In this document: positions 9,248-36,717 of the stretch, in pieces
How positions within the stretch are numbered: the first letter of the stretch is position 1
How the letters are laid out: every line of letters begins with the position of its first letter
DNA from: Escherichia phage Mu
Sequence record: NC_000929.1
Direction: 5' to 3' (one strand)
Length of the DNA stretch: 36,717 nt
The notes under the pieces: generated by a model
The model's input: the letters and a program-made list of their open reading frames with translations, nothing else
What the model was told of the DNA's origin: nothing
Database searches by the model: none
Translations under genes and position numbers: made by a program

Positions 9248-9466
9248 ATGGGTAAAGGCTGGAATGCATCCTTTCATCTTGGCAGACGTGAGCGGCTGCG
9301 TCAGGAGGTTTTGCACCGTGTCGCCGGTGGGCCACGTCCTGCGCCCCGCGACTATACCGGTCATGATGGCACCCACGGCAGTTATTACATGAAAGGCTGG
9401 CAGTCAGTTGATATGCCGGAAATTCTTCATCATTGCCTGCTTTACAGGGAGAAACATTATGTCTGA
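9248..9466 (+). CDS. Middle-operon hypothetical protein (72 aa)
   Basis: ORF with GGGGAAAA upstream of the ATG; first ORF after the early terminator. Confidence 0.55.
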   Translation: MGKGWNASFHLGRRERLRQEVLHRVAGGPRPAPRDYTGHDGTHGSYYMKGWQSVDMPEILHHCLLYREKHYV

Positions 9467-9821
9467 GCGTTCTGCTCGTCAGTGGCCTGATTTTTTATCG
9501 GTGGTGTTACTGGCGCTGTTATTGTGGATAAGTCTGTTTTGTGGCTGGCGCGCGCTGATGTTTTGCTGTGCCTCGGTTTTCAGTGTTGCTTTATGTGTTG
9601 CCGCTGATTGTCTGGATGCGCTGATAATGAGCTGCCGGGTGCCTGAACATTTTGCCCGGTTCGTCTGGCCTCTGACCTGGCTGGGGAGTCTGTCCGGGCT
9701 GGGATTAGCCGTGATGGCAACGTCTCAACTGAAAACGGGTCCTGAGCATGTCATCTGGGCGCTGGCCGGATTGCTGACGTTCTGGCTCTCATTTCGTTTT
9801 CGCGCTCGTCTGTTCGGGTAA
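9459..9821 (+). CDS. Middle-operon predicted membrane protein (120 aa)
   Basis: ATG at 9459 preceded by AGGGAGAAA; the product has several hydrophobic stretches (VVLLALLLWISLF, GLGLAVMA, WALAGLLTFWL). Confidence 0.6.
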   Translation: MSERSARQWPDFLSVVLLALLLWISLFCGWRALMFCCASVFSVALCVAADCLDALIMSCRVPEHFARFVWPLTWLGSLSGLGLAVMATSQLKTGPEHVIWALAGLLTFWLSFRFRARLFG

Positions 9822-9962: not shown

Positions 9963-10385
9963 ATGCAGCATGATTTATTTGAACACGATCCGGCAATTCG
10001 CCAGTTAATCGGACATATTGATAACATCCCGGCCCCGGAACTGGAATCACGCTGGCCCCGTTCGGTGGTTGATCTGATTGATGTTCTGGAAAACGAACTG
10101 AAACGCCAGAACGTCAGCAATCCCCGTGAACTTGCCCGTAAACAGGCCGTTGCCCTGTCCTGTTTTCTGGGTGGACGGCAGTTTTACATCCCCTGCGGCG
10201 ATACGATCCTGACCGCGTTACGCGACGATTTGCTTTACTGCCAGTTTAATGGTCGTAACATGGAAGAACTGCGTCGCCAGTACCGCCTGTCCCAGCCGCA
10301 GATCTACCAGATTATTGCCCGCCAGAGAAAGCTGCATACACGACGTCATCAGCCTGATCTGTTCTCACCTGAAACCCCAAAATAA
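9963..10385 (+). CDS. C: C, late transcription activator (140 aa)
   Basis: 140-aa ORF with GGGGGAAAA upstream; paralog of Mor; position before the lysis and morphogenesis genes. Confidence 0.9.
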   Translation: MQHDLFEHDPAIRQLIGHIDNIPAPELESRWPRSVVDLIDVLENELKRQNVSNPRELARKQAVALSCFLGGRQFYIPCGDTILTALRDDLLYCQFNGRNMEELRRQYRLSQPQIYQIIARQRKLHTRRHQPDLFSPETPK

Positions 10386-24130: not shown

Positions 24131-26203
24131 ATGACCGGGAAACGCTTAAAGGCGTCTGTCATTATTGATCTTAATGGCAATCTTTCCCGGCGTTCCCGCC
24201 AGTATTCGAACCAGATAAACGCCCTGTCCCGTAGCGGGCAAAGTTCCCTTCGTGCCCTGCGTATGGAGGTTGTGCGCGTTTCTGGTGCCATTGACAGAAT
24301 GGGTTCACTGTCAACCCGTACATTCCGAATGCTGTCAGCCGGGGCGCTGGGTATCGCTGGCGTGGGTTACACCGCCAATAAACTGTTTATTGGTGCAGCC
24401 GCCCAGCGTGAGCAGCAGATCATCGCCATGAACTCGCTGTATCACGGCGATAAGGTCAGAGCGCAGGCCATGATGGCCTGGGCGAAGCAGAACGCGAAGG
24501 ACACCACGTGGGGGCTGAGTGGTGTTCTGGATGAGATCCGTTCGTCGAAAGGCTTCGGCATGACGGATGAACAGACGAAACAGTTCATCACCATGTTGCA
24601 GGATCAGGGGGCCATGCACGGCTGGGATTTACCCACTGCACAGGGTGCCTCACTGCAACTGAAACAGATGTTTGCCCGCCAGCAAATCACAGCGGCGGAT
24701 GCCAACCTGCTGACCGGTTACGGTATCAACGTTTATCAGGCGCTGGCGGATGCAACGGGAACGGACGTTAAAAAAATCCGTGATCTGGGTACAAAGGGCA
24801 AGCTGGGCATGAAATCCATTCTGACGGTATTCAGAACGCTGTCAGAACAGTCAAAAGGTGCACAGGCCAGTGCGATGAACTCCTGGGACGGGATGTTCGC
24901 CCAGATGGAAGCCAACCTGCTTGAATTTCGCATAAAGGTGGCAAACAGCGGCCCCTTTGAAGAAATCAAGAACGAGATGCGCCGGGTGCTTAACTGGCAC
25001 GACATGGCGGATAAATCCGGGGAACTTGACGCACTGGCAGAAAACATTGGTCAGAAATTTCTGACCACGTTCAGAACGGTAAAAATCTCGGCGCAGGAAT
25101 TATGGCGCTGGCTGAAACCGGGTAAAGATGCGCTGGCATGGGTTGACCAGAATATTGTCAGCCTGAAAAAACTGGCTGCTGTTCTGGTGTCTGTCTGGCT
25201 TGCCAATAAAGCCCTGAGAGCAGGCTGGGCCGTGGCAAAACCCTCATGGCAGGTTGCCAGTTATCCGTTTAAAACCGGGCGTCGTATGTGGCGCTGGATG
25301 CGAAACCGCAAACGTGGGCAGGCAGGTCTGCCGGTCCCGGATGCCATGACGTCTGAGACGCTGTTGCAGGGTATCGGCATTCAGCGTGTGTTTGTCATCA
25401 ACTGGCCCCGTGGATTTGGTGACTACGGGAGTGGCGGCGGTCGTCGTGTACGGAGCGGCGGAAGAATGGCCCCGCTGTTACCCCGCCAGCCGTTATTGCT
25501 GTCCGGGCCACAGCCGCTGGCATTACCTGCACCACGCCCTGTACTGGCATTACCCCCACCCGGCGTACCGGTAACGGCACGGCCTGCACCATTACCTTTA
25601 CCCGGTAAATCCGGTCTTCTGAGCAGGCTTGCAGGCAGTGCTGCCGGGCAACTGGTTACGGGAACGGTCGGAAAGCTGGCTGATGCCGGGCGTGCCGTTG
25701 GCGGGTGGTTTTCCGGTATCGGAAACAAACTTGCAGGCAGTGCGATCGGTCGGGTTGTGACAAAAGGTGCCGGGGCGCTGGGCTGGATGGGGAAAGGTGC
25801 CGGTCGTGCGTTGTCACGTCTGGGGGGCCCGGTAATGGGGGCACTCCAGCTTGCCCCCGTCCTGATGGATGAGCAGGCGTCAACCCATGAAAAAGCAGGC
25901 GCAATTGGCAGTACAGCCGGTGCATGGCTCGGCGGTGCCGTTGGCAGCCTTGCCGGACCGCTGGGTACGGTTGCTGGTGCCACGCTGGGCAGTGTCGCCG
26001 GGGAGTATCTGGGCGGTTTTGTAACCGACCTGTATCAGAAATGGACGGCCACGGATAAGGAACCGCAGGAACAAAAAGTCAATGCGGAAGCCTCGCTGCG
26101 CGTCGAACTCGGCGAGGGGTTACGTCTGACCAGTTCCCGCGTCACCGAGGATGGTATGGGGCTGAATATTTACGCGGGCGATAACTACATTACGGGCTGG
26201 TAA
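24131..26203 (+). CDS. N: Tail tape measure protein N (690 aa)
   Basis: Large ORF after the chaperone; Ala/Gly-rich with a Pro-rich tract and Gly-rich C-terminal segments. Confidence 0.88.
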
Positions 26204-29842: not shown

Positions 29843-30925
29843 ATGGCTTATTCACCACCGACATTATCATCGCTGATTGCCCGTACAGAACAGAATATTG
29901 AACAGCGCCTGCCGGGTAGCTGGCCTCAGGCCCGTGAAAAAACGCTGAGTGCCATTGCTTATGCTCAGGCGGGCCTTGCTGCCGGTTGTCACGAGCATAT
30001 TTCATGGGTTGGACGGCAGATTATCCCGTCGACAGCAGATGAAGATGAGTTGCTGGAGCACTGCCGGTTCTGGGGCGTGCGCCGCAAACAGGCGACAGCC
30101 GCCAGCGGCCCGCTGACTGTCACCACATCGGCAGCGACCACCATTCCTGCCGGTACACGCTGGCAGCGTGCTGATGGTGTGGTTTACAGCCTGGCTGATA
30201 CCATTGTGATTGACCGTGCAGGAACGACGGAAATTACCGTTACCGCACTGGCTGCCGGTGAAGCAGGAAATACCGGTGAGAATACCCTTTTAACGTTGAT
30301 CACCCCGGTTGCCTGTGTTGTTTCCGATGCCATCACTGTAAAAGGGTTTTCCGGTGGAGCTGATATTGAGAGTGCAGCGGAGCTGCTGTCACGGCTGGAA
30401 TATCGTGTCCAGTATCCTCCGTTCGGCGGTAATCAGTTTGATTACGTTCGCTGGGCACGTGAAGTCAGCGGTGTTACCCGTGCCTGGTGTTTTCCGACAT
30501 GGAAAGGCGGTGGCACAGTCGGGGTGACGTTTGTTATGGATAACCGGAGCAATATTTTTCCGCAACCGGCAGACGTGGAACGCGTGGCGGATTATATCGC
30601 CGGTCATACTGACCCGATCACTGGTCTGATTGTCGGACAGCCTGACGGTGTAAATGTCACGGTATTTGCGCCAAAGGCAAAGCCGGTAAATCCACGGATT
30701 TATATATCACCGAAGACAGCCGAACTGAAACAGGCTATTACCAACGCCATTAATACCATGTTTTTTAATGAGGTGATGCCGGGCGGCGCACTTGCCCCCT
30801 CCCGTATTATCCGTGCGGTGGCAGGTGTTACCGGTCTGGATGATTTTGAAGTGCGTTTCCCGACAGAGATCCAGCGTTCGGAGAATACGGAACTCTTAAC
30901 AGCGGGGACAATTGAATGGCTGTAA
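29843..30925 (+). CDS. R: Baseplate wedge protein R (360 aa)
   Basis: ATG directly after the W stop codon; position in the baseplate block. Confidence 0.78.
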   Translation: MAYSPPTLSSLIARTEQNIEQRLPGSWPQAREKTLSAIAYAQAGLAAGCHEHISWVGRQIIPSTADEDELLEHCRFWGVRRKQATAASGPLTVTTSAATTIPAGTRWQRADGVVYSLADTIVIDRAGTTEITVTALAAGEAGNTGENTLLTLITPVACVVSDAITVKGFSGGADIESAAELLSRLEYRVQYPPFGGNQFDYVRWAREVSGVTRAWCFPTWKGGGTVGVTFVMDNRSNIFPQPADVERVADYIAGHTDPITGLIVGQPDGVNVTVFAPKAKPVNPRIYISPKTAELKQAITNAINTMFFNEVMPGGALAPSRIIRAVAGVTGLDDFEVRFPTEIQRSENTELLTAGTIEWL

Positions 30926-31458
30926 CACCCTGGCAGACGGCCTTTCTGCAATTACTGCCGTCAGGGCTTGCCTGGAATAAAAGCCCCGACAGCAAATTAT
31001 CTGCGCTGGCGCAGGCCATCAGCGACGTGATTGCCACTGCGGCGGATGATGCGCGGCAAATGCTGCGGGAGCGTTTCCCGTCCACATCCCGCTGGTATCT
31101 GGGGGAGTGGGAATCATTTCTGGGGTTGCCGGACTGTACCAGCGAAAACGGCACCCTGTCCGAACGCCAGCGGGCTGCCGCGAATAAAATGCGTATGACC
31201 GGCAATCTGAGTCGGCGCTTTTATGAATGGCTGGCTGCGCAGTACGGTTTTACCGTCAGGCTGACGGATTCCACAGAAGGCCAGTGGGTTACGCAGGTCA
31301 ATATTTACGGTATTAAAAATTATCGCAACGCAACGGTGCTGGATAATGTTCTGACGCCGTTACGTGTTTATGAATCGGGTGCGCTGGAATGTTTACTGGA
31401 GAAATATAAACCCGCGCATCAGATTTATAAATTTGTTTACCATGACGGAGATAACTAA
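30916..31458 (+). CDS. Baseplate wedge / tail-fibre attachment protein (180 aa)
   Basis: Overlaps R at its 5' end and S at its 3' end (TAATG). Confidence 0.75.
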   Translation: MAVTPWQTAFLQLLPSGLAWNKSPDSKLSALAQAISDVIATAADDARQMLRERFPSTSRWYLGEWESFLGLPDCTSENGTLSERQRAAANKMRMTGNLSRRFYEWLAAQYGFTVRLTDSTEGQWVTQVNIYGIKNYRNATVLDNVLTPLRVYESGALECLLEKYKPAHQIYKFVYHDGDN

Positions 31459-32972
31459 TGTTTTATATTGATAACGACAGCGGCGTAACCGTCATGCCGC
31501 CCGTATCCGCCCAGCGTAGTGCTATCGTTCGCTGGTTTTCAGAAGGTGACGGGAATAATGTTATCACATGGCCCGGCATGGACTGGTTTAATATTGTGCA
31601 GGCGGAGTTATTAAACACGCTGGAAGAAGCCGGTATTCAACCGGATAAAACAAAATTAAACCAGCTTGCACTGTCCATTAAAGCCATTATGAGCAATAAC
31701 GCGCTGCTGATAAAAAATAACCTCAGCGAAATTAAAACTGCCGGGGCATCAGCACAGCGTACAGCACGTGAAAATCTGGATATCTATGATGCCAGCCTGA
31801 ACAAAAAAGGACTCGTTCAGCTAACCAGTGCCACTGACAGCCCCAGTGAAACGCTGGCAGCCACCGCAAAAGCGGTGAAAATTGCAATGGATAATGCCAA
31901 TGCCCGTCTGGCAAAAGACCGGAACGGAGCAGATATTCCCAATAAGCCGCTGTTTATCCAAAACCTCGGTTTACAGGAAACGGTAAACAGGGCTAGGAAC
32001 GCCGTGCAAAAGAATGGCGATACCTTGTCCGGTGGGCTTACTTTTGAAAACGACTCAATCCTTGCCTGGATTCGAAATACTGACTGGGCAAAGATTGGAT
32101 TTAAAAATGATGCCGACAGCGACACTGATTCATACATGTGGTTTGAAACAGGCGACAACGGCAATGAATATTTCAAATGGAGAAGCAAACAAAGCACCAC
32201 AACAAAAGACCTGATGAATCTTAAATGGGATGCTTTGTCTGTTCTTGTCAATGCCATTGTAAATGGCGAAGTCATATCAAAATCAGCAAACGGCCTCCGT
32301 ATTGCTTATGGTAATTACGGATTCTTTATTCGTAATGATGGTTCAAATACATACTTCATGTTGACAAACTCCGGTGACAACATGGGGACTTATAACGGAT
32401 TAAGGCCATTATGGATTAATAACGCTACTGGCGCTGTTTCGATGGGGCGTGGTCTTAATGTTTCAGGGGATACACTTTCAGACCGTTTTGCTATTAACAG
32501 CAGTAATGGTATGTGGATTCAGATGCGCGATAACAACGCTATCTTTGGGAAAAATATAGTTAACACTGATAGCGCTCAGGCGTTGCTTCGCCAGAATCAC
32601 GCCGACCGCAAATTTATGATTGGCGGTCTGGGAAATAAGCAATTTGGCATCTACATGATTAATAACTCAAGGACAGCCAATGGCACCGATGGTCAGGCGT
32701 ACATGGATAATAACGGAAACTGGTTATGCGGTGCTCAGGTCATTCCGGGAAATTACGCCAACTTTGACTCCCGCTACGTGCGTGACGTTCGGCTGGGAAC
32801 TCAGTCACTGACTGGCGGCTTGTCTCGTGATTACAAGGCGCCATCCGGTCATGTTATTACAGGTTTTCATACCAATGGCGACTGGGAAATGCAGGGAGGG
32901 GATGACAAGGTTTATATCCGTCCGGTTCAGAAGAATATCAACGGTACCTGGTATAATGTAGCGAGCGCCTGA
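31458..32972 (+). CDS. S: Tail fibre protein S (504 aa): constant part (31458-31953) fused to the variable part inside the G segment
   Basis: The ORF crosses the left inverted repeat at 31954; the peptide [11 protein letters not shown] is encoded by the repeat and is shared with the minus-strand S' ORF. Confidence 0.9.
31954..31987 (+). repeat. Left 34-bp inverted repeat of the G segment (Gin recombination site)
   Basis: ttatccaaaacctcggtttacaggaaacggtaaa; its exact reverse complement is at 35004-35037. Confidence 0.9.
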
Positions 32973-32974
32973 TT

Positions 32975-33502
32975 ATGATGCATCTGAAAAACATTAAGTC
33001 AGAAAATCCAAAAACTAAAGAGCAATATCAGCTAACAAAGAATTTTGATGTTATCTGGTTATGGTCCGAAGACGGGAAAAACTGGTATGAAGAAGTAAAT
33101 AACTTTCAGGACGACACCATAAAGATTGTATACGACGAAAATAATATTATTGTTGCCATAACCAAAGATGCCTCAACGCTTAATCCCGAAGGCTTTAGCG
33201 TCGTTGAGATTCCAGATATAACAGCCAACCGCCGCGCTGATGATTCAGGAAAGTGGATGTTTAAGGATGGAGCTGTAGTTAAACGGATTTATACGGCAGA
33301 CGAACAGCAACAACAAGCCGAATCACAAAAGGCCGCATTGCTTTCCGAAGCTGAATCAGTCATCCAGCCGCTGGAACGCGCTGTCAGGCTGAATATGGCG
33401 ACGGATGAGGAACGCGCACGACTGGAGTCATGGGAACGCTACAGTGTTCTGGTCAGCCGTGTGGATACGGCAAATCCCGAATGGCCACAAAAGCCTGAAT
33501 AA
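32975..33502 (+). CDS. U: Tail fibre assembly protein U (175 aa)
   Basis: Starts [22 protein letters not shown]; clear paralog of the minus-strand U' ORF ([22 protein letters not shown]). Confidence 0.88.
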
Positions 33503-33507
33503 AAATT

Positions 33508-33527
33508 AAGGCCCGATAGCGGGCCTT
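33508..33527. terminator. Bidirectional hairpin terminator between convergent U and U'
   Basis: Stem AAGGCCCG / CGGGCCTT with loop ATAG, lying between the two convergent stop codons. Confidence 0.7.
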
Positions 33528-33530
33528 CTC

Positions 33531-34064
33531 TCATTCTGGTTGTTCTGGAAACGTTACTGGCAGGCTGGAGGTGTCTGTGGATTCGACCTTCTGCGCGTAG
33601 AGCATCCACTCTGTTAATTTTTGTTTATTCTCGTCGGAAATGATGCCCAGCCGTAGCTGTGAGTCCCATAGCTGTGTTTTATCCCTGACGAGCTGTAGCA
33701 GGCTTTGCTTTTCATTTTCCGCTTGTTGCCTCTGCTCTTCCTCGGTATAAGTTCGCTTTATCACTACACCATCTTTGAACATCCATTTACCCGAAATATC
33801 AGCCCGGCGATTTGCTGTAATATCAGGAACCTCAACGACGTTTGCGCCTTCTGGATTAATTGCTGAAACATCCTTTTCAATACAAATAATAACGCCGTTG
33901 TGGTCATAGACCATTTTCAACGTATCAGGCTGAAAGTTCTTTTGTTCCTCATACCAGTTTTTCCCATCCTCTGTATAAAGCCATTTGATGTTAAATTGTT
34001 TCGTTAGCTGGTATTGCTCTTTTGTTTTAGGGTTGCCAGCAGTAATATTTTTTAAGTGCATCAT
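33531..34064 (-). CDS. U': Alternative tail fibre assembly protein U' (177 aa)
   Basis: Paralog of U on the opposite strand inside the G segment. Confidence 0.88.
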   Translation of the reverse strand: MMHLKNITAGNPKTKEQYQLTKQFNIKWLYTEDGKNWYEEQKNFQPDTLKMVYDHNGVIICIEKDVSAINPEGANVVEVPDITANRRADISGKWMFKDGVVIKRTYTEEEQRQQAENEKQSLLQLVRDKTQLWDSQLRLGIISDENKQKLTEWMLYAQKVESTDTSSLPVTFPEQPE

Positions 34065-34066
34065 AA

Positions 34067-35037
34067 TTAAATACTCCCCGCGTTATACCACGTTCCATTA
34101 ATGCAATACTGAATTGGCCTTGCCTGAGTTGTATCAATTAATTCATCACGGTTTCCGTTAACTGAACCCGTAACGACATAACCTGACCTGTCAGACCAGC
34201 CGGGACCATTCCATGTCTGAACAGATGACAGACCGCCAAGACGAATACCTGTAATAAACCTTGAGTTACATTCTGCCTGCGTATATGCACCAACATCTCC
34301 CGCTGATGGCTTACGTGTTGTGGTGTAAATTTCTGACCAGTCAGCTTCGAATCCGTAACCATCACGCGCTGAACGATAAAAAATACCGCCGTTCCTGTAA
34401 TTCACACGGAACTGTACGGCAGGGCAACTCCCCGTATTCATATTGAAGTGGAGGATTAATGTCGATGCGCCACCAATATTTGCGTTATAGACCCCGCTAT
34501 TCCAGTTCCAGCCAACAGCTTTATCATTTCCGACAGTGCTTCCTGTTTGTCCTAAAGCAAATGCAGGCTGCTGGTTTTTCGTGTTGTAGTCTCGTCGCCA
34601 GCCAGGAGCATAAGCATCACCATGATTAATATAAGTGAATTGAGCGTTAGTGATTCCGCCGCCGCTGGACGTACTCGGCGTAGTAACGCGTATGGTCATT
34701 GCGCCGCGAGTGCCAATAACTTCCACCACAGCACCTGCAAGACAAATATTTCCGCAACCTGTATCTGTAATGACCTTATTGTTTGCATAAGCCCATGAGC
34801 CTTTGCACATCCAGTAAGGATGGTTAAATGCCCCCTGACTCTCCAGCCACGAAATAAATTGTGCGGTTGTCCAGACCTGACTATCGCCACCAATATTCAG
34901 CCATGCGCTATATGCGCGACAGGCCCCAATATTTTTGGTGAAGGTATCTTTTCCTGGAATATCTGCGCCGTTCTGGTTTTGCTGTAATGCGCCAGAAGCC
35001 TGATTTACCGTTTCCTGTAAACCGAGGTTTTGGATAA
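34067..35037 (-). CDS. S': Alternative tail-fibre variable part S' (promoterless here; fuses to the constant part of S after inversion)
   Basis: The minus-strand ORF shares the repeat-encoded [12 protein letters not shown] with S and then diverges. The ORF-track 5' extension beyond 35037 runs outside the G segment and is not expected to be translated. Confidence 0.8.
35004..35037 (+). repeat. Right 34-bp inverted repeat of the G segment (Gin recombination site)
   Basis: tttaccgtttcctgtaaaccgaggttttggataa, the reverse complement of 31954-31987. Confidence 0.9.
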
Positions 35038-35091
35038 TGGTCGATTTTGGCACGCATGGCATGATTGGCGCTTTTAAACAGGAGATCCAGA

Positions 35092-35673
35092 GTGCTGATT
35101 GGCTATGTAAGGGTATCAACAAATGACCAGAATACAGACCTGCAACGAAACGCTCTTGTTTGTGCAGGATGTGAACAAATATTTGAAGATAAATTAAGCG
35201 GAACAAGGACAGACCGACCGGGATTAAAACGCGCTTTAAAGCGCCTTCAAAAAGGTGACACACTGGTTGTCTGGAAACTGGATCGCCTCGGGCGAAGCAT
35301 GAAACATTTGATTTCTCTCGTAGGGGAATTACGAGAGCGAGGGATTAATTTTCGCAGTCTTACTGACAGTATTGATACGTCATCTCCAATGGGGCGTTTT
35401 TTCTTCCACGTTATGGGTGCCCTGGCTGAAATGGAACGAGAACTAATTATCGAGCGAACGATGGCTGGACTTGCTGCCGCCAGAAATAAAGGCCGTATTG
35501 GTGGGCGACCACCTAAACTAACCAAAGCGGAATGGGAGCAGGCCGGGCGTTTATTAGCACAAGGAATCCCCCGCAAGCAGGTTGCATTGATCTACGATGT
35601 GGCCCTGTCAACTCTGTATAAAAAACACCCCGCGAAACGAGCGCATATAGAAAACGACGATCGAATCAATTAA
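35092..35673 (+). CDS. gin: Gin, serine-recombinase DNA invertase (193 aa)
   Basis: GTG start at 35092 gives MLIGYVRVSTNDQNTDLQ with the catalytic-serine motif of resolvase/invertase enzymes and a C-terminal HTH; GGAG upstream. The ORF-track start at 35065 is a TTG. Confidence 0.92.
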   Translation: MLIGYVRVSTNDQNTDLQRNALVCAGCEQIFEDKLSGTRTDRPGLKRALKRLQKGDTLVVWKLDRLGRSMKHLISLVGELRERGINFRSLTDSIDTSSPMGRFFFHVMGALAEMERELIIERTMAGLAAARNKGRIGGRPPKLTKAEWEQAGRLLAQGIPRKQVALIYDVALSTLYKKHPAKRAHIENDDRIN

Positions 35674-35767
35674 ATCGATCGGTAATACAGATCGATTATG
35701 CCCCAATAACCACACTCAACCCATGATGTTTTTTAAGATAGTGGCGAATTGATGCAAAGGAGGTGAG
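35659..35767 (+). promoter_or_regulatory. mom operon control region: three GATC (Dam) sites and the C-dependent promoter Pmom
   Basis: GATC at 35659-35662, 35677-35680 and 35690-35693, followed by TTATGCCCCAATAACCACACTCAACCC and the com RBS AAAGGAGGTGAG. The regulatory roles are from established Mu biology. Confidence 0.7.
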
Positions 35768-35956
35768 ATGAAATCAATTCGCTGTAAAAACTGCAACAAA
35801 CTGTTATTTAAGGCGGATTCCTTTGATCACATTGAAATCAGGTGTCCGCGTTGCAAACGTCACATCATAATGCTGAATGCCTGCGAGCATCCCACGGAGA
35901 AACATTGTGGGAAAAGAGAAAAAATCACGCATTCTGACGAAACCGTGCGTTATTGA
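35768..35956 (+). CDS. com: Com, zinc-finger translational activator of mom (62 aa)
   Basis: [33 protein letters not shown] with two CxxC pairs; overlaps the 5' end of mom. Confidence 0.9.
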
Positions 35957-36640: not shown

Positions 36641-36717
36641 TGTTTCATTTGAAGCGCGAAAGCTAAAGTTTTCGCATTTATCGTGAAACGCTTTCGCGTT
36701 TTTCGTGCGCCGCTTCA
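36641..36717 (+). repeat. Right-end transposase binding sites R3 (36641-36662), R2 (~36667-36690, inverted), R1 (36695-36717, inverted)
   Basis: tgtttcatttgaagcgcgaaag in direct orientation; the reverse complements cgtttcacgataaatgcgaaaac and tgaagcggcgcacgaaaaacgcg match the end-site motif seen at the left end; the window ends in ...CA. Confidence 0.85.

What the first reader, a model, noticed from the sequence alone, without database searches (positions are those of the whole stretch)
31954..35037. Invertible host-range switch: 34-bp inverted repeats, duplicated tail-fibre modules and an adjacent invertase
Perfect 34-bp inverted repeats at 31954-31987 and 35004-35037 flank two paralogous tail-fibre modules on opposite strands (S-variable/U and S'-variable/U'). 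Both S reading frames run through the repeat, which encodes the shared peptide [11 protein letters not shown], so inversion swaps the C-terminal receptor-binding part of the fibre. The serine invertase gin starts 55 nt outside the right repeat, and in Mu its recombinational enhancer lies in the 5' part of gin. This is the classic Mu G segment, caught here in the orientation that expresses S and U.
Basis: partly seen in the sequence, partly recalled or inferred. Interest (0 to 1): 0.45.

Follow-up and report, generated by a model that had tools for sequence, protein, structure and literature searches.

The report
Phage Mu G-segment host-range switch
This is the textbook invertible G segment of bacteriophage Mu, a 3-kb DNA flip made by the Gin enzyme that swaps the tip of the tail fibre and so changes which bacteria the phage can infect.

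Summary
Exact 34-bp inverted repeats lie at 31954-31987 and 35004-35037. They are the longest exact inverted repeat in the window, and about 2e-12 such pairs are expected by chance. They bracket Sv/U on the + strand and U'/Sv' on the - strand. The gin gene starts at GTG 35092, 55 nt beyond the right repeat.

The window is the complete 36,717-bp phage Mu genome with G in the (+) orientation. Inverting 31954-35037 in silico fuses the constant part of S to Sv' and gives an intact 488-aa fibre.

Both orientations occur in public data. Two independent assemblies of E. coli W carry a Mu prophage with 1 mismatch in 10,064 nt to the window. They differ only by exact inversion of this segment. Strain ST18 carries two Mu copies, one in each orientation.

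Gin, S+U and the S/S' fusion match solved PDB structures (3UJ3, 5YVQ, 8JU3). The Fis enhancer in the 5' part of gin rests on the literature. My sequence tests gave supportive but not decisive evidence for it.

The parts
31458..31953 (+). Sc, the constant N-terminal part of tail-fibre gene S (residues 1-165). It lies outside the invertible segment. Its ATG overlaps the stop codon of the upstream late gene (30916-31458).
   Evidence: ORF list; Pfam Phage_fiber_2 at residues 113-153; identical N-terminal 1-244 match to both PDB 5YVQ_A (S) and 8JU3_A (S/S' fusion)
31954..31987 (.). Left 34-bp inverted repeat (IR-L). The 26-bp gix site is 31954-31979, TTATCCAAAACC-TC-GGTTTACAGGAA. That is two 12-bp imperfect half-sites around the central crossover dinucleotide at 31966-31967.
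   Evidence: Exact reverse complement of 35004-35037. Half-site anatomy. The inversion breakpoints in the E. coli W assemblies fall inside the repeats. Assigning the 26-bp gix core and the 2-bp crossover follows established knowledge of the Hin/Gin family.
31988..32972 (+). Sv, the variable C-terminal part of S. It is expressed in the G(+) orientation shown here.
   Evidence: Continuous with Sc in a 504-aa ORF; Gp34_trimer domain; full-length identity to PDB 5YVQ_A 'Tail fiber protein S'
32975..33502 (+). U, the tail-fibre assembly protein (chaperone) for S. Expressed in G(+).
   Evidence: Caudo_TAP E 7e-37; PDB 5YVQ_B 'Tail fiber assembly protein U' 1-175/1-175
33508..33527 (.). GC-rich hairpin AAGGCCCGATAGCGGGCCTT between the convergent stops of U and U'. 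It has an A-run on one side and a T-run on the other. It is a likely bidirectional terminator at the centre of the segment.
   Evidence: Terminator scan; sequence; terminators are annotated on both strands at the same place in D108
33531..34064 (-). U', the alternative tail-fibre assembly protein. Expressed after inversion, in G(-).
   Evidence: Caudo_TAP E 3e-37; 56% identical to U
34067..35003 (-). Sv', the alternative variable C-terminal part of the fibre. It has no start codon of its own inside G and becomes fused to Sc after inversion.
   Evidence: The frame reads through IR-R. gp37_C domain. Residues 2-323 match 167-488 of PDB 8JU3_A. It is annotated as part of a 488-aa fibre in the G(-) E. 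coli W assembly.
35004..35037 (.). Right 34-bp inverted repeat (IR-R). The gix site is 35012-35037, TTCCTGTAAACC-GA-GGTTTTGGATAA, with the crossover dinucleotide at 35024-35025.
   Evidence: A crossover-type site sits at the same offset (-80 +/-1 from the invertase start) in 75 related IMG/VR loci.
35092..35673 (+). gin, a 193-aa serine DNA invertase with a GTG start and an AGGAG Shine-Dalgarno at 35080-35084. It lies outside the invertible segment, so it is expressed in both orientations.
   Evidence: Resolvase E 7e-50 and HTH_7 E 2e-17; PDB 3UJ3_X and 4M6F_A 'DNA-invertase' 1-193/1-193; Ser9, Met114, K46/R47/K50 and Q150/R153/L154 present
35116..35187 (.). Approximate position of the Fis-dependent recombinational enhancer (sis) inside the 5' part of gin. 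The boundaries are inferred and not resolved.
   Evidence: Literature: three Fis sites in the gin coding region, ~550 bp upstream of the mom start (PMC3378877). Hin's proximal Fis site is ~100 bp from hixL (PMC3798978). Here, gin codons 9-13 (35116-35130, ~98 bp from the gixR centre) show no synonymous change in 66 distinct homologues. That is the longest such run in the gene (81 of 20,000 permutations reach it). Degenerate Fis-consensus matches lie at 35125-35139 and 35162-35176.

Best explanation
This is the G segment of bacteriophage Mu, a 3,084-bp invertible cassette counted with both repeats, shown in the G(+) state.

The fibre gene is split. Its constant 5' part, Sc, lies outside the cassette under the late-operon transcript. 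The cassette holds two alternative, promoterless 3' modules facing each other, Sv-U and Sv'-U', separated by a central hairpin terminator.

Gin is a small serine recombinase encoded just outside the right repeat. Gin dimers bind the two 26-bp gix sites within the 34-bp repeats. With host Fis bound to an enhancer inside the 5' end of gin, they form a synaptic tetramer on supercoiled DNA. The tetramer makes staggered double-strand cuts at the central dinucleotide through Ser9-phosphoryl links. One half rotates by 180 degrees and the DNA is religated, which flips the segment.

The crossover lies inside the codons for [11 protein letters not shown], which are shared by both frames. Either orientation therefore yields an in-frame fibre: S, 504 aa, with chaperone U, or S', 488 aa, with chaperone U'. 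A lysogen population produces two virion types with different receptor specificity.

Shown here:
- the repeats, the frames and the in-frame fusion;
- the domain content of all five proteins;
- identity to Mu proteins with solved structures;
- natural occurrence of both orientations of an essentially identical prophage.

Taken from the literature:
- dependence on Gin and Fis, and the strand-exchange chemistry;
- host ranges. G(+) infects E. coli K-12. G(-) infects E. coli C, Citrobacter, Enterobacter, Serratia, Erwinia and Shigella sonnei.

Inferred: the exact enhancer coordinates.
For: - Exact 34-bp inverted repeat, the longest in the window.
- ORF layout and the shared peptide.
- Pfam: S has Phage_fiber_2 and Gp34_trimer, U and U' have Caudo_TAP, Sv' has gp37_C, Gin has Resolvase and HTH_7. 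com and mom follow downstream, as in Mu.
- Best database relatives are Mu, D108, SfMu and the P1/P7 C segment, with matching annotation.
- PDB matches: Gin 3UJ3/4M6F, S+U 5YVQ, S/S' fusion 8JU3.
- E. coli W assemblies NC_017664 (G+) and NC_017635 (G-) hold a prophage with 1 mismatch in 10,064 nt to the window. The two assemblies become identical (0 differences over 10,634 nt) once 31954-35037 is inverted in silico.
- Strain ST18 carries one 100%-identical junction of each orientation in a single chromosome.
- Across 5,426 complete E. coli genomes, 23 hold a full-length G(+)-type Sc-Sv junction and 12 hold a full-length G(-)-type Sc-Sv' junction.
- Literature on mechanism and host range: PMC3575834, PMC4406740, PMC3378877, PMC3798978.
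Against: Nothing contradicts this explanation. The limits are as follows.
- The two E. coli W assemblies show that inversion happened. They do not show that Gin did it.
- The enhancer could not be pinned down from sequence. The degenerate Fis consensus is not enriched in the window (62 matches against 78.9 expected), and synonymous-site constraint in the 5' part of gin is only moderate.
- The simple promoter scan found no gin promoter.
- The Mu reference genome record itself is absent from the phage collection. Identity to Mu therefore rests on the G-segment record, PDB chains, D108 and the E. coli W prophage.
Confidence: 0.97

Rival explanations
1. A frozen relic. The repeats, the fibre modules and the invertase gene are present, but the segment no longer inverts, so the phage is locked in G(+).
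For: Locking has been suggested for the close relative SfMu. One of its inverted repeats carries a 1-bp change next to the crossover, and its induced and infection lysates showed the same host range (PMC4406740).
Against: In the window the two repeats are identical over 34/34 bases, and gin is intact with Ser9. An essentially identical prophage occurs in both orientations in two assemblies of one strain, and within one ST18 chromosome.
Confidence: 0.01
2. Inversion occurs by host homologous (RecA) recombination between the 34-bp repeats, which are simply the conserved joint of duplicated fibre genes. The adjacent recombinase would be incidental.
For: The E. coli W comparison shows a reciprocal exchange somewhere within the repeats but cannot identify the enzyme. 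The repeat encodes a conserved fibre peptide.
Against: - A 34-bp repeat is a very poor RecA substrate.
- The repeats contain a 26-bp dyad site of the hix/gix/cix type.
- A site of that type sits at a fixed offset from the invertase start in 75 related loci, even where the fibre sequences are unrelated.
- Gin-dependent in vitro inversion and a covalent Ser9 intermediate are documented (PMC3575834; Mertens et al. 1984, cited).
Confidence: 0.01
3. The two orientations in public assemblies are assembly artefacts, with the repeat-flanked segment placed arbitrarily, and do not reflect real heterogeneity.
For: Assemblers can mis-orient segments flanked by long inverted repeats.
Against: The repeat is only 34 bp, shorter than any modern read, so single reads span each junction and fix the orientation. 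A minority orientation would be out-voted, not invented. The SfMu genome and IMG/VR contigs L006 and L014 also carry the G(-)-type arrangement. A G(-) product has been purified and its structure solved (8JU3).
Confidence: 0.01

Closest known systems
Bacteriophage Mu G segment with gin (Gin/gix/sis/Fis system)
   Same: It is this element. It has the same 34-bp repeats and the same order Sc | Sv-U-U'-Sv' | gin-com-mom. Its proteins are identical in length and alignment to PDB Mu S, U, S/S' and Gin chains. It aligns end to end with GenBank AF466696, 'Mu invertible G-segment'.
   Different: There is no functional difference. The older AF466696 record is 3,128 nt against 3,084 nt here, with 28 mismatches and 14 gap openings (97.1%). 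These most likely reflect sequencing-era differences.
Phage P1 / P7 C segment with Cin (cix sites)
   Same: Homologous S/U and S'/U' cassettes, about 91-93% nucleotide identity over 57-67% of the query. The logic is the same: a split fibre gene and a serine invertase. The Mu and P1 systems are known to be functionally interchangeable (established knowledge).
   Different: P1's constant fibre part and its flanking genome are unrelated to Mu's. The crossover sites of the non-Mu relatives in IMG/VR read TTCTCCCAAACCAACGTTTATGAAAA, not the Mu sequence. I infer these to be cix/pix-type.
Salmonella Hin / H segment (flagellar phase variation)
   Same: It has the same invertase subfamily, a 26-bp dyad crossover site and a Fis-bound enhancer inside the 5' end of the invertase gene, ~100 bp from the nearest site (PMC3798978). 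The invertase-specific Fis-contact residues are conserved in Gin.
   Different: In Hin, the invertase gene lies inside the ~1-kb invertible segment, and the switch moves a promoter for fljBA. In Mu, gin lies outside and the switch exchanges coding 3' ends.
e14 Pin P segment, and the p15B Min multiple-inversion system
   Same: Serine invertases of the same family that flip tail-fibre C-terminal cassettes in defective prophages and plasmids. The ~1.6-2.0-kb segments seen next to the 78-82%-identical invertases in IMG/VR fit this class.
   Different: The segments are shorter (~1.8 kb), or there are more than two crossover sites, which gives many fibre variants. Mu has exactly two sites and two states.
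Diversity-generating retroelement of Bordetella phage BPP-1
   Same: The biological outcome is the same: programmed variation of the receptor-binding end of a tail fibre to change host range.
   Different: The mechanism is entirely different. It uses reverse-transcriptase-mediated mutagenic retrohoming and has no site-specific inversion. The variant repertoire is huge, not two fixed alleles.

Membership tests
Fis/enhancer-dependent DNA invertases (Hin/Gin/Cin/Pin subfamily of small serine recombinases) | N-terminal serine-recombinase catalytic domain with the nucleophilic Ser at position ~9-10 | tested here: met
   Pfam Resolvase PF00239, E 6.7e-50, residues 3-135. Ser9 sits in YVRVSTNDQ. The protein matches Gin PDB chains 3UJ3 and 4M6F over their full length. 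Ser9 is stated to be the linking residue in PMC3575834.
Fis/enhancer-dependent DNA invertases (Hin/Gin/Cin/Pin subfamily of small serine recombinases) | C-terminal helix-turn-helix DNA-binding domain, with a total size of ~190 aa | tested here: met
   HTH_7 PF02796, E 2.4e-17, residues 138-181; the protein is 193 aa
Fis/enhancer-dependent DNA invertases (Hin/Gin/Cin/Pin subfamily of small serine recombinases) | Invertase-specific residues that contact the Fis/enhancer: Hin Gln151/Arg154/Leu155 in DBD helix 1, and basic residues 47, 48 and 51 near helix B (PMC3798978) | tested here: met
   Gin has Q150/R153/L154 in EQAGRLL and K46/R47/K50 in RPGLKRALKR. The offset of one residue relative to Hin numbering is from my own knowledge of the Hin N-terminus. 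No Hin sequence was aligned here.
Fis/enhancer-dependent DNA invertases (Hin/Gin/Cin/Pin subfamily of small serine recombinases) | Two 26-bp crossover sites in inverted orientation, each an imperfect dyad of 12-bp half-sites around a 2-bp core that is identical in both sites | tested here: met
   gixL 31954-31979 and gixR 35012-35037 are exact reverse complements. The half-sites are TTATCCAAAACC and TTCCTGTAAACC, and the core is TC/GA.
Fis/enhancer-dependent DNA invertases (Hin/Gin/Cin/Pin subfamily of small serine recombinases) | A cis-acting recombinational enhancer with Fis-binding sites, lying in the 5' part of the invertase gene in native systems | tested here: inconclusive
   The literature places three Fis sites in the gin coding region (PMC3378877). 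Here there are two degenerate-consensus matches, at 35125-35139 and 35162-35176, but the consensus is not enriched in the window. Synonymous sites are frozen at codons 9-13 (81 of 20,000 permutations reach this run length), and synonymous variation is lower over codons 1-60 than over the rest of the gene (Mann-Whitney p 0.002). Fis binding itself cannot be tested with these tools.
Fis/enhancer-dependent DNA invertases (Hin/Gin/Cin/Pin subfamily of small serine recombinases) | The segment between the sites is actually found in both orientations | tested here: met
   E. coli W assemblies NC_017664 and NC_017635 differ only by exact inversion of 31954-35037. ST18 holds both junction types at 100% identity.
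Phage Mu G segment specifically | Split fibre gene: Sc lies outside, the alternative Sv-U and Sv'-U' modules lie inside on opposite strands, and both are in frame across the repeat | tested here: met
   ORFs. In silico inversion gives an intact 488-aa S'. This matches PDB 8JU3 and the annotated fibre of the G(-) prophage.
Phage Mu G segment specifically | Mu genomic context: late tail/baseplate genes upstream, gin-com-mom and the Mu right end downstream | tested here: met
   Com and Mom Pfam hits. D108 shows the same order. In E. coli W the prophage-host junction falls exactly at window position 36717. The window length of 36,717 nt equals the published Mu genome length (my own knowledge).
Phage Mu G segment specifically | G(+) and G(-) virions have different host ranges | not testable with these tools
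   Literature only: G(+) infects E. coli K-12. [quoted passage not shown]

The most novel reading that the evidence does not exclude
A second, imperfect inverted repeat (22/25) lies at 31915-31939, in Sc 15 nt outside IR-L, and at 34956-34980, in Sv' 24 nt inside IR-R. It encodes NGADIP in both places.

Because of it, the G(-) fibre carries two tandem copies of a joint motif, [17 protein letters not shown] followed 15 residues later by NGADIPGKDTFTKNIGA. The G(+) fibre carries one copy.

The most novel reading not excluded is that this motif, and not the gix core alone, is the unit at which fibre modules are exchanged between phages. This could be by homologous recombination or by an ancestral, displaced crossover site. 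The extra copy in S' might also have a structural role, such as a hinge or a register change. The mosaic G segments of close relatives, with the same Sc and Gin but different Sv/U cargo and lengths of about 2.7-3.3 kb, fit frequent module exchange at this boundary.
Probability: 0.1. Interest if true: 0.25.

Novelty: already known. Interest (0 to 1): 0.07.

Why it matters
The finding matters only as a positive control for the scan. This is the system in which Fis was discovered, and it is a model for serine-recombinase subunit rotation.

One small practical point comes out of the work. Public 'finished' genomes of a single strain (E. coli W) disagree in this segment because the lysogen population is heterogeneous. 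Annotation pipelines then call the unexpressed module either a separate 'tail fiber protein' or a pseudogene, depending on orientation.

No new biology is claimed.

Tried and rejected
1. Fis-consensus scan (GNNYRNNWNNYRNNC). It gave 62 matches in the window against 78.9 expected. The consensus is too weak to locate the enhancer, so the two matches in the 5' part of gin are only candidates.

2. Synonymous-site conservation along gin in 66 distinct homologues from 79 IMG/VR loci. There is a significant frozen run at codons 9-13 and lower variation over codons 1-60. Other low windows exist further along the gene, at codons 69-76, 105-116 and 145-152. The profile does not delimit the enhancer on its own.

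3. Promoter scan of 31300-35800. It found no gin promoter, and it found no promoter inside G reading towards Sv'/U'. The absence of an internal promoter fits the known promoterless cassette, but a negative from a simple consensus scan is weak evidence.

4. Attempts to read the primary papers that map sis, gix and the Fis sites failed because they are not held in the library. These were Koch 1991, Deufel 1997, Hengen 1997 and the Johnson 2015 review. The exact published Fis-site coordinates could not be transferred.

5. The longer mechanical ORFs were considered and rejected. These are the TTG start of gin at 35065 and the minus-strand ORF running from Sv' up to 35263. The PDB chains and the RefSeq annotation support GTG 35092. 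The minus-strand extension is antisense to gin and lies outside the cassette.

6. The E. coli W genome paper (PMC3032704) was checked for any mention of the G orientation. None was found with the search terms used.
Full report
**Observation.** The repeat finder reports arms at 31954-31994 and 34997-35037, 41 nt at 93%. A direct comparison shows that 31954-31987 is exactly the reverse complement of 35004-35037 (34/34). The bases differ immediately outside and immediately inside both arms. It is the longest exact inverted repeat in the window. About 2e-12 such pairs are expected in random sequence of this length.

The ORF list gives S at 31458-32972 (+, 504 aa), U at 32975-33502 (+, 175 aa) and U' at 33531-34064 (-, 177 aa). 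A minus-strand frame ending at 34067 reads through the right repeat. Both fibre frames encode [11 protein letters not shown] across the repeat. gin begins at GTG 35092, at +55 from the repeat end, behind an AGGAG at 35080-35084. All the coordinates and statements of the finding are therefore correct.

**What the window is.** Its length of 36,717 nt equals the published phage Mu genome length (my own knowledge). The gene order is late tail/baseplate genes, S, U, U', S', gin, com, mom. This points to the complete phage Mu genome.

The Mu reference record itself is not in the phage collection. The best hits are:
- D108, at 94.9% over 96% of the query, annotated S, U, U', S', gin, com, mom;
- AF466696, 'Enterobacteria phage Mu invertible G-segment', whose annotated 34-bp terminal repeats coincide with the finding's coordinates;
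- SfMu;
- the C segments of P1, P7 and D6, at 90-93%.

Pfam gives Phage_fiber_2 and Gp34_trimer for S, Caudo_TAP for U and U', and gp37_C for Sv'. It gives Resolvase and HTH_7 for Gin, Zn_ribbon_Com for Com, and the Mom family for Mom.

Solved structures exist for every protein in the switch. Gin is 3UJ3 and 4M6F, aligned 1-193 to 1-193. S with U is 5YVQ. The Sc-Sv' fusion is 8JU3, 488 aa, named 'Tail fiber protein S, Tail fiber protein S''.

**Does inversion give a working alternative gene?** Joining 31458-31987 to the reverse complement of 34067-35003 gives an uninterrupted 488-aa protein. That is the length of 8JU3. The window's Sv' translation aligns to residues 167-488 of that chain. U' then follows the new fibre gene after a 2-nt gap, just as U follows S. 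A GC-rich hairpin at 33508-33527 lies between the two convergent stops, with A- and T-runs on either side. It can terminate transcription from either direction, and terminators are annotated on both strands at the same place in D108.

U and U' are 56% identical. Sv and Sv' are alike only over their last ~77 residues, at 38% identity. 'Duplicated modules' is therefore accurate for the chaperones and for the extreme C-terminus of the fibres. It is not accurate for the bulk of the receptor-binding parts.

I built the G(-) left junction in silico (Sc-IR-Sv', 634 nt) and searched 5,426 complete E. coli genomes. Twelve genomes hold it over its full length, three of them at 100% identity. The G(+) junction is held over its full length by 23 genomes, nine of them at 100%.

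E. coli W appears in both lists, at the same chromosomal coordinates, in two independent assemblies. I fetched both regions. Assembly NC_017664 differs from the window by 1 base in 10,064. Assembly NC_017635 differs from NC_017664 only between window positions 31988 and 35003. Inverting 31954-35037 in silico makes the two assemblies identical over all 10,634 bases.

Strain ST18 carries two Mu copies in one chromosome, one with each junction, both at 100% identity. The SfMu genome is deposited in the G(-)-type arrangement, as its authors note (PMC4406740). IMG/VR contigs with 97-99% identical Gin include both arrangements, for example L010 against L006 and L014. The switch is therefore seen in both states in nature. 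These data alone do not show which enzyme made the exchange.

**Mechanism.** The 34-bp repeats contain a 26-bp imperfect dyad, TTATCCAAAACC-TC-GGTTTACAGGAA, of the hix/gix/cix type. Gin carries Ser9, Met114 and the residues reported as specific to Fis-dependent invertases. These are K46/R47/K50 and Q150/R153/L154, which correspond to Hin 47/48/51 and 151/154/155 in PMC3798978.

The literature read here states the following.
- Gin inverts the 3-kb G segment, forms a covalent Ser9-DNA intermediate and needs Fis unless mutated at M114V (PMC3575834).
- Three Fis sites lie inside the gin coding region, ~550 bp upstream of the mom start (PMC3378877).
- In the Hin system, the proximal Fis site is ~100 bp from the nearest crossover site (PMC3798978).

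I tried to see the enhancer in the sequence. The degenerate Fis consensus is uninformative, with 62 matches against 79 expected. It does match at 35125-35139 and 35162-35176. In 66 distinct gin homologues (67-99.8% nucleotide identity) from IMG/VR, synonymous variation is lower over codons 1-60 than over the rest of the gene (0.27 against 0.36, Mann-Whitney p 0.002). Codons 9-13 (35116-35130) show none at all. That is the longest such run in the gene, reached in 81 of 20,000 permutations. Its centre is ~98 bp from the gixR crossover.

A crossover-type site also sits at the same offset from the invertase start codon (-80 +/-1) in the related loci with enough upstream sequence. This holds even where the fibre cargo is unrelated. 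It fits a constrained site-to-enhancer geometry. I treat the enhancer coordinates of roughly 35116-35187 as inferred.

**Comparison with known systems and novelty.** This is not merely like the Mu G segment. It is the Mu G segment in the G(+) orientation, together with gin. The closest other systems are P1/P7 Cin-C, which has homologous cargo, and Salmonella Hin-H, which has the same enzyme subfamily but moves a promoter and keeps the invertase inside the segment. e14 Pin and p15B Min are also close.

Every defining feature that could be tested was met. The exception is direct Fis binding, which is literature-based. Host range cannot be tested with these tools. The finding is a correct rediscovery of a textbook element. 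Novelty is 'already known' and interest is low.

**Things seen in passing.**
- An imperfect second inverted repeat encodes NGADIP, once outside and once inside the segment.
- PGAP annotates the silent module inconsistently: as a separate gene in one assembly and as a pseudogene in the other.
- The older Mu G-segment GenBank record differs from the window by 28 mismatches and 14 gap openings.
- Close relatives carry the same Sc and Gin but different Sv/U cargo.
- An unexplained exact 19-nt inverted repeat links 9768-9786 and 10105-10123, across the start of the 140-aa ORF at 9963-10385.

Noticed in passing
window 31915-31939 and 34956-34980: A second, imperfect inverted repeat (22/25) lies 15 nt outside IR-L, in Sc, and 24 nt inside IR-R, in Sv'. 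Both arms encode NGADIP. After inversion the S' fibre therefore carries two tandem copies of the joint motif, [17 protein letters not shown] and NGADIPGKDTFTKNIGA, while S carries one. It may be a footprint of fibre-module shuffling.
   Followed up: partly
window 9768-9786 and 10105-10123: An exact 19-nt inverted repeat, GGATTGCTGACGTTCTGGC / GCCAGAACGTCAGCAATCC, with arms ~320 nt apart. One arm lies near the end of ORF 9408-9821 (+). The other lies inside ORF 9963-10385 (+, 140 aa), which I take from memory, untested, to be Mu's late-gene activator C. About 0.0025 such pairs are expected by chance. It may be a long-range RNA pairing or a regulatory element. It is unexplained.
   Followed up: no
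window 25048-25067: A perfect 20-nt palindrome was detected by the exact inverted-repeat scan. About 0.035 are expected by chance. It was not examined.
   Followed up: no
window 35060-35062 (- strand ATG), with L004 and L005 (E. coli W): An ATG lies 8 codons outside IR-R on the minus strand, in frame with Sv'. PGAP therefore annotates the silent Sv' as a free-standing 331-aa 'tail fiber protein' in the G(+) assembly. In the G(-) assembly it annotates the silent Sv as a pseudogene 'missing N-terminus'. How the unexpressed module is annotated depends on orientation.
   Followed up: partly
L001 (AF466696.1) versus window 31954-35037: The older GenBank 'Mu invertible G-segment' record is 3,128 nt against 3,084 nt here and only 97.1% identical, with 28 mismatches and 14 gap openings. 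These are probably early-sequencing errors and not a strain difference.
   Followed up: partly
L008, L011, L013, L014, L006 (IMG/VR contigs with 97-99% identical Gin): These Mu-like prophages have near-identical Sc ends and Gin but different Sv/U cargo, and the site-to-site distances vary from about 2.7 to 3.2 kb. The cassette contents are mosaic, while the crossover sites and the invertase are conserved.
   Followed up: partly
L015-L085 (IMG/VR loci, Gin homologues 76-82% identical): Nearly all carry TTCTCCCAAACCAACGTTTATGAAAA or a close variant at the same offset (-80 +/-1) from the invertase start as gixR in Mu. An inverted partner usually lies ~1.6-2.0 kb upstream. The spacing from crossover site to invertase is conserved across the family.
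   Followed up: partly
window 35116-35130 (gin codons 9-13, TCAACAAATGACCAG): There is no synonymous variation at these codons in 66 distinct homologues whose overall synonymous pair difference is 0.33. It is the longest such run in the gene. It overlaps the catalytic-serine motif and lies ~98 bp from the gixR centre, so it is a candidate for the proximal Fis site of the enhancer.
   Followed up: partly
NZ_CP060709.1 (E. coli ST18), 388531-389164 and 498518-499151: One chromosome holds two Mu copies whose G segments are in opposite orientations, and both junctions are 100% identical to the window. The laboratory donor strain S17-1 also carries a 100%-identical Mu junction, in the G(+) form.
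   Followed up: no
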